From Thermoplasmata archaeon (GTDB lineage Archaea > Thermoplasmatota > Thermoplasmata > GCA-020350865), in assembly GCA_020348445.1 (NCBI GenBank), contig CP070751.1:254006-318005 (forward strand): 64,000 bases of DNA. Direction: 5' to 3'. This document shows positions 51,864-53,989 of this stretch, piece by piece. Under the pieces are notes generated by a model. The model was not told where the DNA came from. It made no database searches and worked only from the letters and a program-made list of their open reading frames with translations. The stretch's first letter is position 1; each line of letters opens with the position of its first letter. The position numbers and the translations under genes were made by a program.

Positions 51864-52883
51864 ATGCATCTTTCAGATTTCGATTATCAGCTACCTACGC
51901 ACTTAATAGCACAAAGACCTGCGGAACCAAGGGACTCCTCAAGGCTAATGGTCATGCAAAGGGACATAATCGAGCATAAGAAATTTCGGGATTTAAAGGA
52001 TTATTTAGATCGTGGAGACATTTTGATTCTCAACGATTCAAAGGTTTTGCCTGCCAGAATTTTCGGAAAAAAAGTGACAGGCGGGAAGGTGGAAGTTCTT
52101 TTAGTTACTAAAGAAGATGAATCTACTTGGGAATGCCTAATAAAAGGTAAAAACATAAAGGAAAATACACGCCTTTTTTTCGGGGATAATGAATTGGTAG
52201 GGAAAATAATGGAGAGAATCGAGGGAGGAAGATATAGGATAGAATTTGAAGCACAAAAAGATCTAGGGGAAATATTAAAGAGAATCGGAAAAATGCCAAC
52301 CCCGCCTTACATAAAGGAGTTACTTTTGGATCAGGACAGATACCAGACTGTGTACGGTAAAGAAAATGGTTCAATTGCCGCGCCTACGGCGGGTCTGCAT
52401 TTTACTGAAGATTTTCTAGCACAGCTTCGCGAAAAGGGAGTGGTTATTACCCCTCTCACCCTCCATGTCAGTGTGGGAACGTTTCTTCCCGTAAAGGTGA
52501 AATACATAAGGGAACACAAGATGGAACCTGAACTTTTTGAAATAGATAACAAAACTGCAAAAACCATAAATTCAGCAAGGGAAGACAAGAAGAAAATAAT
52601 TGCAGTTGGCACCACCACATTAAAGGCTCTTGAGAGTGCCTGCGATGATAATGGTAGAATTTCCGAAACAAAAGGAGAAAGCGATCTGTTTATTTATCCT
52701 GGCTACGAATTCAAGTTCAAATTGGATGGCCTTCTCACAAATTTTCATCTTCCTAAATCCACGCTTATTATGCTCGTTTCAGCTTTTGCAGGAAAGGATA
52801 CTATACTGGATTCTTATAACGTTGCCATAGAACATTCGTACAGATTCTACAGCTTTGGAGACGCCATGTTGATATTAAAGTGA
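51864..52883 (+). CDS. queA: S-adenosylmethionine:tRNA ribosyltransferase-isomerase
   Basis: SDFDYQLP..LIAQRP..RD.SRL, NDSKV.PAR, PPYI, YQTVY, AAPTAGLHFT, TLHV..GTF, TNFHLPKSTL..LVSAF, YRFYSFGDAMLI. Confidence 0.96.
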   Translation: MHLSDFDYQLPTHLIAQRPAEPRDSSRLMVMQRDIIEHKKFRDLKDYLDRGDILILNDSKVLPARIFGKKVTGGKVEVLLVTKEDESTWECLIKGKNIKENTRLFFGDNELVGKIMERIEGGRYRIEFEAQKDLGEILKRIGKMPTPPYIKELLLDQDRYQTVYGKENGSIAAPTAGLHFTEDFLAQLREKGVVITPLTLHVSVGTFLPVKVKYIREHKMEPELFEIDNKTAKTINSAREDKKKIIAVGTTTLKALESACDDNGRISETKGESDLFIYPGYEFKFKLDGLLTNFHLPKSTLIMLVSAFAGKDTILDSYNVAIEHSYRFYSFGDAMLILK

Positions 52884-52888
52884 TTATA

Positions 52889-53989
52889 ATGTTCGAAATT
52901 GAATATGAGGACGAAAAGTCAGAGGCAAGGGCAGGAACATTAACCGTCAACAATAGAATCTTCGAAACTCCTGGATTCCTACCTGTTGCCACAAAGGCAG
53001 ATGTAAAGCTCATCTCCCCTGATGAGTTACAGGAGATCGGAGCTTCGGGAGTCATCACAAACGCCCTTGTTCTTTTCCTAAGACCGGGCCTTGAGGTAGT
53101 TGAAGCAGCAGGCGACATTCACAAGTTCATGTCATGGGACGGTATCGTCTTCTCGGACAGCGGCGGCTTTCAGATGCTCAACTCCGACTTTCTTGTGAAG
53201 GTCACAGAAGAACTAGTAACATTTAAATCACCATTTACAGGTTCCATACTTGATTTTTCCCCAGAATTATGCGTTGAAATCCAGATGCGGTTAGGTTCTG
53301 ATATTGCCATGGTACTTGACGACTGCCCTTCATATGGAAGCAGTTACGATGATATCTTAGCATCGACAAAACGAACCCTTTTCTGGGCAAAGAGATTTAG
53401 AGATTCCCATAAAAACCAGTCCCAGGAAGTCTTTGGAATTGTCCAGGGCGGGGTGTTTAAGGATTTGAGGGATAATTGTGCAGAGAGTCTTGTAAAAATG
53501 GATTTTGACGGATACGCGATCGGGGGGCTTTGCATCGGTGAGCCCAAGGATGTGATGCACGAGGTAATCCAGAAAACGACACCTCTTTTACCTCCCCAAA
53601 AACCCAGGTATTTAATGGGTGTGGGTTCCCCGGAGGACATGCTCAAGGCAATATCATGCGGGGTTGACATCTTTGATTCTGTTTTTCCCACAAGAAACGC
53701 CAGGCACAACACTGTGTACACCAAGAACGGAAAGGTGAATTTGGGTAAGGAGAAGTTCAACTCGGATATTGGGCCTATTGATGAAGGATGCAAGTGCTAC
53801 ACCTGCAGCAAGTTTTCACTGTCCTATGTAAATCATCTACTTCGGGAGTACGAGTACTTTGGCATGCGGTTGGCAACCATACACAACCTGCATTTTCTCG
53901 TGAATCTGATGAAGGAGGCAAGAGAGGCCATTTTAGAGGGAAGGTTCGAGGGATTTAAAGGGGAATTTCTACAAAATTATAAATTTTAA
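52889..53989 (+). CDS. tgt: Bacterial-type tRNA-guanine(34) transglycosylase
   Basis: TPGFLPVAT, DSGGFQ, LDDCP, IVQGG, GGLCIGE, RYLMGVG, FDSVFPTRNAR, Zn site CKCYTC...HN. About 367 aa with no PUA extension. Overlaps the queA stop (GTGA). Confidence 0.93.
   Translation: MFEIEYEDEKSEARAGTLTVNNRIFETPGFLPVATKADVKLISPDELQEIGASGVITNALVLFLRPGLEVVEAAGDIHKFMSWDGIVFSDSGGFQMLNSDFLVKVTEELVTFKSPFTGSILDFSPELCVEIQMRLGSDIAMVLDDCPSYGSSYDDILASTKRTLFWAKRFRDSHKNQSQEVFGIVQGGVFKDLRDNCAESLVKMDFDGYAIGGLCIGEPKDVMHEVIQKTTPLLPPQKPRYLMGVGSPEDMLKAISCGVDIFDSVFPTRNARHNTVYTKNGKVNLGKEKFNSDIGPIDEGCKCYTCSKFSLSYVNHLLREYEYFGMRLATIHNLHFLVNLMKEAREAILEGRFEGFKGEFLQNYKF

What the first reader, a model, noticed from the sequence alone, without database searches (positions are those of the whole stretch)
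51864..53989. Bacterial-type queuosine genes (queA-tgt operon) in an archaeal chromosome
Characterised archaea make archaeosine at G15 using arcTGT and are generally considered to lack queuosine at position 34. Here a full QueA overlaps (GTGA) a short, PUA-less TGT with bacterial signatures: DSGGFQ, the Asp-x-Cys pocket (LDDCP), GGLCIGE (bulky residue where queuine-using TGTs have Gly, implying preQ1 insertion) and PTRNAR. QueA only makes sense on preQ1-tRNA, so this archaeon likely builds (epoxy)Q34. Such genes have, to my recollection, been noted in a few uncultured archaea, but I know of no biochemical proof of archaeal Q, and the flanking genes look archaeal.
Basis: partly seen in the sequence, partly recalled or inferred. 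Interest (0 to 1): 0.8.

Follow-up and report, generated by a model that had tools for sequence, protein, structure and literature searches.

The report
Archaeal queuosine genes lacking QueF
A sediment-type Thermoplasmata archaeon really does carry the "bacterial" genes for the tRNA wobble base queuosine, which is already reported for other archaea. Its lineage lacks the usual enzyme that makes the precursor preQ1, and an uncharacterised iron-sulfur protein next door is a strong, testable candidate to replace it.

Summary
Window 51864-52883 encodes QueA and 52889 (or 52880)-53989 encodes a PUA-less, G34-type Tgt. Both score above NCBIfam equivalog cut-offs, and Tgt keeps every catalytic, pocket and zinc residue.

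The host is archaeal (Thermoplasmatota). Two multi-megabase 'Thermoplasmata archaeon' records and three congeneric MAGs share the synteny S8 protease - HGD-D (-) | ACT - queA - tgt (+). The genome also has arcTGT, an ArcS-like gene, QueC, a QueE-like gene, FolE2 and QueH.

The phenomenon is not new:
- Castelle et al. 2021 reported QueA/QueH/Tgt in 34 archaeal genomes.
- NCBI already names these proteins Tgt.
- This scan has seen the same thing in Asgard archaea.
- Here, QueA occurs in 95 of 401 sampled genomes of the phylum.

What is new concerns the precursor. The genus has no QueF, YhhQ or QueT. The divergently transcribed 311-aa HGD-D-family protein co-occurs with QueA (28 of 31 genomes in this phylum; 5 of 5 among 176 genomes of a second phylum) and never with QueF (0 overlap). 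It lies head-to-head with queA-tgt in Thermoplasmatota, ANME-2 and Methanocellales, in the last two beside an activase. It is a candidate QueF-independent route to preQ1; this is inferred, not shown.

The parts
50313..51248 (-). HGD-D/BcrC/HgdB-family single-subunit [4Fe-4S]-type protein, 311 aa from the conserved Met (the ORF runs on to 51311). Candidate supplier of preQ1 (QueF substitute).
   Evidence: PF06050 at 97.8 bits. Orthologues of 54-73% identity sit divergently beside queA-tgt in congeners, in CP070672.1/CP070726.1, in ANME-2 and in Methanocellales. Cys41, Cys69 and Cys265 are invariant. AF2 pLDDT is 95.5 and the fold matches HadC/BzdO/DCCP. Phyletic pattern.
51249..51402 (.). 154-bp AT-rich divergent intergenic region between the HGD-D gene and the ACT-queA-tgt operon; presumed bidirectional promoter region.
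   Evidence: Sequence read: A/T-rich boxes and a GGAGG-type ribosome-binding site before the ACT ATG. Promoter function was not tested.
51403..51780 (+). Stand-alone double-ACT-domain protein (125 aa), first gene of the operon. Role unknown; presumably binds a small ligand.
   Evidence: PF01842 and PF19571 ACT pair. It is conserved directly upstream of queA in the genus (84-87% identity), in CP070672.1/CP070726.1 (73-94%) and in family f15 (51-58%). It is absent from the ANME-2 and Methanocellales clusters.
51864..52883 (+). queA: tRNA preQ1(34) S-adenosylmethionine ribosyltransferase-isomerase (339 aa).
   Evidence: NF001140 at 443 bits over a cut-off of 324; TIGR00113 at 403 bits; PF02547 full length.
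52889..53989 (+). tgt: bacterial-type tRNA guanosine(34) transglycosylase, 366 aa from ATG 52889 (369 aa if the GTG at 52880 is used).
   Evidence: TIGR00430 at 442 bits over a cut-off of 306.75. 347 bits to Thermotoga maritima TGT 2ash against 97 bits to arcTGT 1iq8. Catalytic, pocket and zinc residues are conserved.

Best explanation
The window belongs to a Thermoplasmata-type archaeon (phylum Thermoplasmatota). It encodes an operon ACT-queA-tgt whose last two products are orthologues of the bacterial enzymes that build queuosine at tRNA position 34.

Proposed route:
- preQ0 is made by the archaeal 7-deazaguanine genes (FolE2, QueE-like, QueC), which the cell also needs for archaeosine.
- preQ1 is produced or obtained.
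- Tgt exchanges G34 of tRNA-Asp/Asn/His/Tyr for preQ1.
- QueA adds the epoxycyclopentanediol from SAM.
- The unlinked QueH reduces epoxyqueuosine to Q.

Shown by sequence: the identity of QueA, Tgt and QueH, the archaeal host, vertical inheritance and a wide distribution in the phylum. Inferred: that Q34 is actually made.

The preQ0-to-preQ1 step has no known gene here: no QueF and no YhhQ or QueT importer. My best inference is that the divergently transcribed 311-aa HGD-D-family iron-sulfur protein fills this gap. It would probably act as a homodimer fed by an ATP-dependent BcrAD/BadFG-type activase, either as a QueF-independent nitrile reductase or through another preQ1-yielding reaction.
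For: Gene identity: equivalog-level scores for QueA and Tgt. Closest solved structures are bacterial TGTs. D93, D253, D147, C149, I219 (the Val233 position) and the Zn ligands are conserved; the meaning of the pocket residues is taken from PMC6165067.

Archaeal host:
- arcTGT (669-aa frame) and an ArcS-like gene are in the genome.
- The same S8 - HGD-D | ACT - queA - tgt synteny occurs on CP070672.1 (4.23 Mb) and CP070726.1 (2.50 Mb), both 'Thermoplasmata archaeon', and in congeners G002-G004.
- A class relative, G025, is identical to a named Thermoplasmata MAG.
- Local GC of 0.425 is close to the genome's 0.418.

Rest of the pathway: QueH at 209 bits, QueC next to a radical-SAM gene, FolE2.

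Distribution: QueA in 95 of 401 phylum genomes.

No QueF, YhhQ or QueT in this genome; no QueF or YhhQ in its congeners.

HGD-D link:
- In this phylum 28 of 31 HGD-D-like-positive genomes are QueA-positive, and none carries QueF, although 43 of the 47 QueF-positive genomes in the sample are QueA-positive too.
- In a second phylum exactly the same 5 of 176 genomes hold QueA and the HGD-D orthologue. None of the 5 has QueF and 4 have QueH.
- Head-to-head adjacency is seen in f1, f44, ANME-2, Methanocellales, G441 and G463.
- In other QueF-less archaeal clusters yhhQ lies next to the cluster: divergent from queA-tgt (HGD-D's position) in L137, upstream of ACT-queA-tgt on the same strand in f15.
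- The fold is that of ATP-driven low-potential reductases and dehydratases.
- The homodimer model scores 0.71 against a best control of 0.00. That mark was reached by 20 of 30 proteins solved as pairs of one chain and 1 of 23 solved as single chains. The runs agree in at least 91% of contacts and pLDDT is 93. The pass may reflect likeness to solved HadBC/DCCP dimers.
Against: - No biochemical evidence for Q in any archaeon was found in the searchable literature.
- The genome is a draft of about 353 contigs and 82% complete, so an absence in this one genome is weak evidence. The absence of QueF rests on 5 congeners plus the phylum-wide pattern.
- No dedicated activase lies next to the HGD-D gene here. 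The genome's BcrAD/BadFG homologues are only 30-40% identical to the ANME-2/Methanocellales activases, and the single-domain one is paired with a different 416-aa HGD-D protein.
- A near relative (CP070739.1; G001 shows the same state) keeps HGD-D and ACT (QueH was seen in G001), although queA is reduced to an 81-aa remnant and tgt is gone.
- In Methanoperedens the HGD-D gene is not next to queA.
- HGD-D, queA and tgt may simply travel as one cassette, which would inflate the co-occurrence.
- Nitrile reduction has not been reported for this enzyme family.
Confidence: 0.72

Rival explanations
1. The Q-pathway genes are functional, but preQ1 (or preQ0 plus an unknown step) is scavenged from the sediment community through an unrecognised transporter. 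The HGD-D gene would be an unrelated neighbour that hitch-hikes with the queA-tgt cassette.
For: Salvage is common in QueF-less bacteria, and several unrelated transporter families can carry preQ0/preQ1 (PMC11130926). Two archaeal lineages clearly use yhhQ beside queA-tgt. The closest bacterial Tgt relatives checked also lack QueF. HGD-D has no dedicated activase here. CP070739.1 keeps HGD-D without queA-tgt.
Against: No YhhQ or QueT was found in this genome, and no YhhQ in the genus; QueT was searched in this genome only. Hitch-hiking does not explain why HGD-D still co-occurs with QueA where the genes are unlinked (G436, G452, G131, G127, G059, family f38). It also does not explain why HGD-D never coexists with QueF (0 of 31 and 0 of 5 genomes).
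Confidence: 0.3
2. The HGD-D-like protein belongs to the pathway but acts at a different point. It might reduce preQ0 already inserted in tRNA, release preQ1 from salvaged queuine or Q (a role like that of the queuine lyase of Clostridioides, recalled from memory), or serve as a second epoxyqueuosine reductase.
For: The co-occurrence and adjacency data show linkage to the pathway but do not identify the substrate. The family performs radical eliminations as well as reductions (fold matches).
Against: QueH is present in most HGD-D-type genomes, so the oQ step is already covered. Exclusivity is with QueF specifically. The cells make preQ0 themselves, so a free-base reductase is the simplest gap-filler.
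Confidence: 0.12
3. The queA-tgt segment is bacterial contamination, a chimeric join, or a very recent transfer not typical of the organism.
For: The assembly is a 353-contig draft that is oddly large (5.16 Mb) and ordered in two blocks.
Against: The genes lie inside a 154-kb contig. The same six-gene synteny is found on two multi-megabase Thermoplasmata records and in three other MAGs of the genus, at 61-76% (QueA) and 65-74% (Tgt) protein identity. GC matches the genome. The nearest named relatives are all archaeal, and bacterial ones reach at most 50% identity.
Confidence: 0.02
4. The enzymes have been recruited to another substrate, for example DNA 7-deazaguanine modification or another tRNA position, so no Q34 is made.
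For: The TGT superfamily includes DNA-modifying DpdA. No archaeal Q has been measured.
Against: DpdA scores 26 bits against a cut-off of 200. The full QueA/Tgt/QueH trio co-occurs. All tRNA-type active-site residues are conserved. The genome encodes GUN tRNAs carrying U33-G34-U35.
Confidence: 0.04

Closest known systems
Bacterial queuosine pathway with QueH as the last enzyme (Thermotoga maritima type: QueF, Tgt, QueA, QueH)
   Same: Tgt, QueA and QueH are orthologous at equivalog or near full-length Pfam level. Tgt is most similar to T. maritima and (by my reading of entry 10fb) E. coli TGT structures and keeps the preQ1-type pocket. Like T. maritima it has Ile at the Val233 position.
   Different: The host is an archaeon that also runs arcTGT/ArcS. 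No QueF was found. The operon carries an extra ACT-domain gene and a conserved divergent HGD-D-family gene.
Bacterial-type queuosine genes reported in archaea (Castelle et al. 2021, PMC8204110: 34 archaeal genomes, 12 of them DPANN, and some Methanosarcinales)
   Same: The same three enzymes (QueA, QueH-like, Tgt) in archaeal genomes, read as a laterally acquired bacterial pathway. There are no biochemical data.
   Different: That paper describes co-localised queA-queH-tgt and does not discuss the preQ1 source. Here queH is unlinked, the lineage is a large-genome Thermoplasmata genus, and the cluster partner is HGD-D/ACT. The trait is shown here to be frequent across Thermoplasmatota (95 of 401 genomes).
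QueF, the NADPH-dependent preQ0 nitrile reductase (T-fold family, PF14489)
   Same: It has the pathway position that the HGD-D-like protein is proposed to fill. The two are mutually exclusive among QueA-positive archaea.
   Different: There is no sequence or fold relationship. QueF uses a covalent thioimide on Cys and 2 NADPH. The candidate has the fold of ATP-activated [4Fe-4S]/[8Fe-9S] enzymes.
2-hydroxyacyl-CoA dehydratases (HadBC), class I benzoyl-CoA reductase BzdNO/MbdON and the double-cubane cluster protein DCCP
   Same: PF06050 membership. Foldseek TM-scores (query-normalised) of 0.74-0.83 to the best-matching chains (HadC, MbdO/BzdO, DCCP). A conserved Cys aligns with a Cys of HadC and DCCP, taken here to be a cluster ligand. 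An HgdC-type activase is translationally coupled in the ANME-2 and Methanocellales orthologues.
   Different: Only 17-19% identity. It is about 60-110 residues shorter, a single subunit (predicted homodimer) rather than a heterodimer, has three invariant Cys, and no CoA-transferase or ligase context. Its genomic partner is queA-tgt.
Bacterial preQ0/preQ1 salvage (YhhQ/COG1738, QueT/QrtT and other transporters; PMC5372724, PMC11130926)
   Same: A QueF-less organism keeping Tgt-QueA-QueH. Related archaeal clusters carry yhhQ next to queA-tgt.
   Different: No known transporter family was detected in this genome, and no YhhQ in its congeners.

Membership tests
Bacterial tRNA guanosine(34) transglycosylase Tgt (TIGR00430) | Whole-protein score above the curated equivalog cut-off | tested here: met
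   442.3 bits against a cut-off of 306.75.
Bacterial tRNA guanosine(34) transglycosylase Tgt (TIGR00430) | Catalytic Asp pair, preQ1 pocket (Asp156/Cys158/Val233 in Z. mobilis numbering) and the CxCxxC...H zinc site | tested here: met
   D93, D253, D147, C149, I219 (Ile as in T. maritima), C304/C306/C309/H335. The roles of the residues are taken from PMC6165067.
Bacterial tRNA guanosine(34) transglycosylase Tgt (TIGR00430) | Exchange of G34 for preQ1 in GUN tRNAs | not testable with these tools
   Needs an enzyme assay or complementation.
Archaeosine tRNA-guanine transglycosylase (arcTGT, TIGR00432) | Score above cut-off and C-terminal C1/C2/PUA domains (about 580-670 aa) | tested here: not met
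   145.8 bits against a cut-off of 350; the protein has 366-369 aa. A separate 669-aa arcTGT frame lies at G000:C1:3874866.
DpdA (DNA 7-deazaguanine transglycosylase, NF041059) | Score above cut-off | tested here: not met
   26.4 bits against a cut-off of 200.
QueA (NF001140 / TIGR00113) | Full-length match above the equivalog cut-off | tested here: met
   443.3 bits against 324; 402.9 bits against 267.45; residues 1-338.
Complete de novo bacterial queuosine pathway | preQ0 reductase QueF present | tested here: not met
   PF14489, TIGR03139 and tblastn with QueF of class relatives gave no hit in G000. QueF was found in 0 of 5 genomes of the genus. G000 is only 82% complete.
Complete de novo bacterial queuosine pathway | Epoxyqueuosine reductase (QueG or QueH) and preQ0 synthesis genes present | tested here: met
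   QueH at 209 bits. QueC at 258 bits next to a radical-SAM gene. FolE2 at 43% identity. QueD was not searched.
Precursor-salvage type Q pathway | YhhQ/COG1738 or QueT/QrtT transporter | tested here: not met
   No PF02592 or PF06177 match in G000 and no tblastn hit with archaeal YhhQ. YhhQ was found in 0 of 4 congeners.
HGD-D family (PF06050: HgdB/HadC/BcrC/DCCP) | Pfam score above cut-off, family fold and conserved cluster cysteines | tested here: met
   97.8 bits against 28.4. Foldseek E-values 2e-14 to 6e-13 and TMq 0.78-0.83. Cys41, Cys69 and Cys265 are invariant in 44 sequences.
HGD-D family (PF06050: HgdB/HadC/BcrC/DCCP) | Second homologous catalytic subunit, as in the HgdAB/HadBC/BcrBC heterodimers | tested here: not met
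   A single gene is present in all contexts seen. The homodimer model scores 0.71 against a best control of 0.00.
HGD-D family (PF06050: HgdB/HadC/BcrC/DCCP) | Dedicated ATP-dependent activase (PF01869) | tested here: inconclusive
   An activase is adjacent and coupled in the ANME-2, Methanocellales and one uncultured-archaeon orthologue. None is adjacent in the window, and the genome holds only paralogues of 30-40% identity.

The most novel reading that the evidence does not exclude
The 311-aa HGD-D-family protein divergent from queA-tgt (with an HgdC-type activase where one is encoded) is a previously unrecognised queuosine-pathway enzyme. It would be an ATP-driven iron-sulfur preQ0 reductase, or another preQ1-forming enzyme, that replaces QueF in many Thermoplasmatota, ANME-2, Methanoperedens and Methanocellales. 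This would also give a function to the 'orphan HgdB-like plus activase' pairs noted repeatedly in archaeal genomes.
Probability: 0.4. Interest if true: 0.85.

Novelty: new variant of a known kind. Interest (0 to 1): 0.6.

Why it matters
Textbooks place queuosine in Bacteria and Eukarya and archaeosine in Archaea. The gene-level exception is already published, so another archaeal queA-tgt operon is on its own only a further member. It does show that the trait is common and vertically kept in a whole archaeal phylum, not a curiosity.

The added value is the precursor gap. A large group of Q-gene-bearing archaea has no QueF, and in both phyla sampled the QueF-less QueA carriers mostly (28 of 52) or always (5 of 5) hold one uncharacterised iron-sulfur protein. 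If that protein makes preQ1, it would be a second, mechanistically unrelated biological route for reducing a nitrile to an amine, or a new salvage reaction. It would extend the chemistry of the HgdAB/BCR/DCCP family and assign a function to a widespread orphan gene pair. It is directly testable by complementing E. coli delta-queF and by a simple in vitro assay.

Tried and rejected
- rRNA taxonomy failed. Only the last 123 nt of an archaeal-type SSU gene sit at a contig end, and the 'single contig' is about 353 contigs joined by runs of N.
- The closed genomes CP070672.1 and CP070726.1 are not held for whole-genome search, so QueF absence could not be checked in a finished genome of the group.
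- The look-up of the QueA of G017 by identity found nothing. Its identity as a cultured strain stays a recollection.
- The Tgt tree places the window with its genus, f2, Methanocellales, Hydrothermarchaeales, ANME-2 and Methanoperedens, apart from the QueF-type Thermoplasmata families. The bacterial sample was one narrow Bacilli/Mollicutes clade and the backbone support was about 80, so I draw no conclusion on donor or number of transfers.
- An attempt to sample other bacterial phyla through labelled loci was dropped, because those 'Muribaculaceae' and 'Azospirillum' records are 1.2-1.4 Mb genomes that group with the Bacilli.
- I considered and set aside HGD-D as a replacement for the epoxyqueuosine reductase, because QueH is present.
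- I considered the ACT protein as part of the mechanism. It is conserved only in f1-type and f15 clusters, so it is not a general component.
- No systematic difference in the preQ1 pocket was seen between HGD-D-type and QueF-type Tgt.
- The MFS transporter at 5033-6313 is 46 kb away and was not pursued.
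Full report
THE OBSERVATION

Two plus-strand ORFs fill the stated interval.
- The first (51864-52883, 339 aa) is a full-length QueA: NF001140 at 443 bits (cut-off 324), TIGR00113 at 403 bits, PF02547 at 425 bits.
- The second (52880-53989) is a G34-type Tgt: TIGR00430 at 442 bits (cut-off 306.75). It scores 146 bits on arcTGT (cut-off 350) and 26 bits on DpdA (cut-off 200).
- Its best solved relatives are bacterial TGTs: Thermotoga maritima 2ash at 347 bits, entry 10fb (which I take to be E. 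coli TGT) at 344 bits and Zymomonas at about 327 bits. Eukaryotic QTRT1 scores about 268 bits and arcTGT 97 bits.
Aligned to bacterial TGTs, the protein keeps the catalytic Asp93 and Asp253, the pocket residues Asp147 and Cys149, and Ile219 at the position of Z. mobilis Val233. It also keeps the zinc ligands Cys304, Cys306, Cys309 and His335.
- PMC6165067 states that bacterial Cys158/Val233 correspond to human Val161/Gly232, and that the valine would block the cyclopentenediol of queuine. T. maritima TGT also has Ile there, so a preQ1-type pocket is a fair reading.
- One correction. The identical database protein starts at the ATG at 52889 (366 aa), and orthologues begin 3-5 bp after the queA stop. 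The GTGA overlap is therefore probably not real, though the genes are tightly coupled.

IS THE HOST AN ARCHAEON, AND IS THE LOCUS PART OF ITS GENOME?

The 'one-contig' genome is in fact about 353 contigs joined by runs of 100 N. The window lies inside a 154-kb contig. Several lines agree that the locus is native and archaeal.
- The genome has a 669-aa arcTGT frame and an ArcS-like gene, and a fragment of an archaeal-type SSU rRNA. ARAGORN reports introns in many of its tRNA genes.
- Three other MAGs of the genus carry HGD-D | ACT - queA - tgt in the same order, at 65-76% (QueA) and 70-74% (Tgt) identity.
- The collection holds the same six-gene block (glycosyltransferase, S8 protease, HGD-D on the minus strand; ACT, QueA, Tgt on the plus strand) on CP070672.1 (4.23 Mb) and CP070726.1 (2.50 Mb). 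Both are labelled 'Thermoplasmata archaeon'.
- A class-level relative (G025) is base-for-base a named Thermoplasmata MAG.
- Local GC (0.425) equals the genome mean (0.418).
- Contamination, chimerism and recent transfer are effectively excluded.

HOW COMMON IS IT, AND IS IT KNOWN?

- Among 41 relatives, QueA, bacterial-type Tgt and QueH co-occur in 9 of 19 families.
- In an even sample of 401 genomes of the phylum, QueA is present in 95 genomes, or 59 of 162 genera.
- One of these (G017) holds QueA, Tgt, QueH, QueF and arcTGT on a single 1,486,778-bp contig that is 99% complete.
- The nearest named Tgt relatives are all archaeal: Thermoplasmata at 65-72% identity; Methanocellales, Methanoperedens, ANME-2, Hydrothermarchaeales and other Thermoplasmatota at 51-55%. 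NCBI already names them 'tRNA guanosine(34) transglycosylase Tgt'.
- The best bacterial species-representatives reach only 46-50% identity.
- Castelle et al. 2021 reported the complete or partial bacterial Q pathway (QueA, QueH-like, Tgt) in 34 archaeal genomes (PMC8204110).
- Earlier follow-ups of this scan reached the same verdict for Asgard archaea.
- I found no paper reporting Q chemically in an archaeon. Reviews still state that it is absent (for example PMC8879553).
- The finding as written is therefore a further, well-supported instance of a published oddity.

THE PATHWAY IN THIS ORGANISM

- Present: FolE2/GCHY-1, QueC beside a radical-SAM (QueE-like) gene, Tgt and QueA (this locus), and QueH (209 bits).
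- Not found: QueF, whether searched by PF14489, by TIGR03139 or by tblastn with QueF proteins from the same class.
- Also not found: YhhQ, QueT and QueG above cut-off.
- G000 is only 82% complete. However, QueF and YhhQ are also missing from all four congeners, whereas families f10, f12, f13, f14 and f16 of the same class do have QueF.
- QueA needs the aminomethyl group of preQ1, so the source of preQ1 is the open step.

THE NEIGHBOUR

The gene transcribed divergently from ACT-queA-tgt (50313-51248, minus strand; 311 aa from the conserved Met) belongs to the HGD-D/HgdB/BcrC family. Another first-stage note had flagged it as a possible missing redox enzyme, and I tested that lead.

1. Conserved neighbourhood.
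 - Orthologues of 54-57% identity lie in the same head-to-head position next to queA-tgt in an ANME-2 archaeon and a Methanocellales archaeon. There each is translationally coupled to a BcrAD/BadFG-type activase.
 - The same adjacency occurs in another Thermoplasmatota family (f44: G091, G123) and in G441 and G463 of the second phylum.
 - One uncultured-archaeon contig has GTP cyclohydrolase FolE2 just upstream of the HGD-D-activase pair.

2. Phyletic pattern in the 401-genome sample.
 - 31 genomes have an HGD-D-like match and 28 of them are QueA-positive. The other three belong to a family in which 20 of 24 genomes are QueA-positive.
 - 47 genomes have QueF, and 43 of them are QueA-positive.
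 - No genome has both QueF and the HGD-D-like protein.
 - In family f56 one genome has HGD-D and no QueF, while eleven relatives have QueF and no HGD-D.
 - Fisher tests give p = 2e-16 and p = 5e-10. Because kin are not independent, the fairer count is about ten HGD-D families and fifteen QueF families, with only f56 shared.

3. Independent replicate.
 - In 176 genomes of the phylum containing the Methanoperedens MAG, exactly the same five genomes carry the HGD-D orthologue and QueA.
 - None of the five has QueF, whose eight hits are all in QueA-negative genomes.
 - Four of the five have QueH.

4. Positional equivalence. In QueF-less clusters without HGD-D, the precursor transporter gene yhhQ lies beside the cluster instead. 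In f15 the order is yhhQ-ACT-queA-tgt on one strand, and in a 'Methanobacteriota archaeon' yhhQ is divergent from queA-tgt, in HGD-D's position, with queH 2 kb away.

5. The protein itself.
 - It is a high-confidence model (pLDDT 95.5) with the fold of HadC, BzdO/MbdO and the double-cubane cluster protein: TMq 0.78-0.83 at 17-19% identity.
 - Three cysteines are invariant.
 - A homodimer is supported by the model: score 0.71 against a best control of 0.00. The mark was reached by 20 of 30 proteins solved as pairs of one chain and by 1 of 23 solved as single chains. The runs agree in at least 91% of contacts and pLDDT is 93. The pass may owe something to likeness to solved dimers of the family.
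 - No paper in the library links this family with queuosine.

INTERPRETATION OF THE NEIGHBOUR

The simplest reading of a protein that accompanies QueA/Tgt/QueH exactly where QueF is missing is that it provides preQ1. Its relatives are ATP-energised low-potential reductases, which supports that idea. The most economical version is reduction of the cell's own preQ0. This is inference.

The caveats are real.
- No dedicated activase lies near the gene in this genome. The only single-domain activase is paired with a different 416-aa HGD-D protein and an acyl-CoA ligase.
- CP070739.1 keeps HGD-D and ACT, and its likely counterpart G001 keeps QueH, although queA is an 81-aa remnant and tgt is lost.
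- The gene is unlinked from queA in Methanoperedens.
- Inheritance as one cassette could inflate the co-occurrence.
- Salvage through an unknown transporter remains a serious rival, since transporter families for preQ0/preQ1 are diverse (PMC11130926).
- The ACT-domain gene is a conserved operon member only in the f1-type and f15 clusters. Its role is unknown.

VERDICT

I rate the operon itself as a new member of a known kind. I rate the QueF-less, HGD-D-associated form of the pathway as a new variant of a known kind that is worth an experiment.

Noticed in passing
G000:C1:4640570-4643566 (outside the window; locus L093 2570-5567): About 19-22 tRNA genes are packed into 3 kb on one strand, including mostly intron-less copies of Tyr, Asn, Asp and His GUN tRNAs. 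Their sequences are AT-rich and quite unlike the GC-rich, intron-bearing tRNA-Asp/Tyr/His genes elsewhere in the genome. This looks like a virus- or mobile-element-borne tRNA array. ARAGORN found the only tRNA-Asn(GUU) there.
   Followed up: partly
whole genome G000: The 'single contig' is about 353 contigs joined by 100-N spacers, in two differently ordered blocks (one sorted by length up to about 2.0 Mb, then an unsorted 3.1 Mb). At 5.16 Mb it is larger than its congeners (2.3-3.7 Mb) and the related multi-megabase records (2.5-4.2 Mb). It may be a composite bin.
   Followed up: partly
L135 (CP070739.1, 'Methanomassiliicoccales archaeon', 3.2 Mb); G001 appears to be in the same state: In this near relative the queA gene is reduced to an 81-aa remnant and tgt is missing from the locus, while the HGD-D and ACT genes stay intact (QueH was seen in G001). 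This looks like a recent loss of the tRNA-level steps.
   Followed up: partly
window 51403-51780: A 125-aa double-ACT protein is conserved as the first gene of the queA-tgt operon in two distant Thermoplasmata families (51-58% identity between them). It is absent from the ANME-2 and Methanocellales clusters. Its ligand and role are unknown.
   Followed up: partly
window 54166-64000: An open frame of more than 3,278 aa directly downstream of tgt runs off the window. It has InhA-like MAM and other beta-domain matches and is a giant surface protein. The related genomes have different large surface proteins at this position.
   Followed up: no
window about 10000-47800: A low-GC (0.31-0.39) island is dense in glycosyltransferases, methyltransferases, PMT-like enzymes, UDP-sugar dehydrogenases, a polysaccharide deacetylase and two GT4 (MraY/WecA-like) genes. 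It is a cell-surface glycan locus bordering the queA-tgt cluster.
   Followed up: no
families f18, f11, f41 and f29 of the phylum sample (e.g. G268:C1:1398680-1399615): QueA-family matches here are markedly weaker (125-245 bits). In f18 and part of f8 they start near profile position 20; those of f11, f41 and f29 are near full length but weak. They occur in genomes with neither QueF nor the HGD-D-like gene. They may be a divergent QueA-like paralogue with another function.
   Followed up: no
G451, G462, G473, G493, G525, G541, G557 and G596 (second phylum): QueF-family (PF14489) matches lie inside long open frames (245-460 aa) in genomes without QueA. They are probably QueF-like or fused proteins used for something other than Q, possibly archaeosine.
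   Followed up: no
G000:C1:3100376-3102344 (L139 3299-5345): A second, longer (416 aa) HGD-D-family protein is coupled to a single-domain BcrAD/BadFG activase and followed by an AMP-binding acyl-CoA ligase. This is a separate ATP-dependent dehydratase/reductase system in the same genome.
   Followed up: partly
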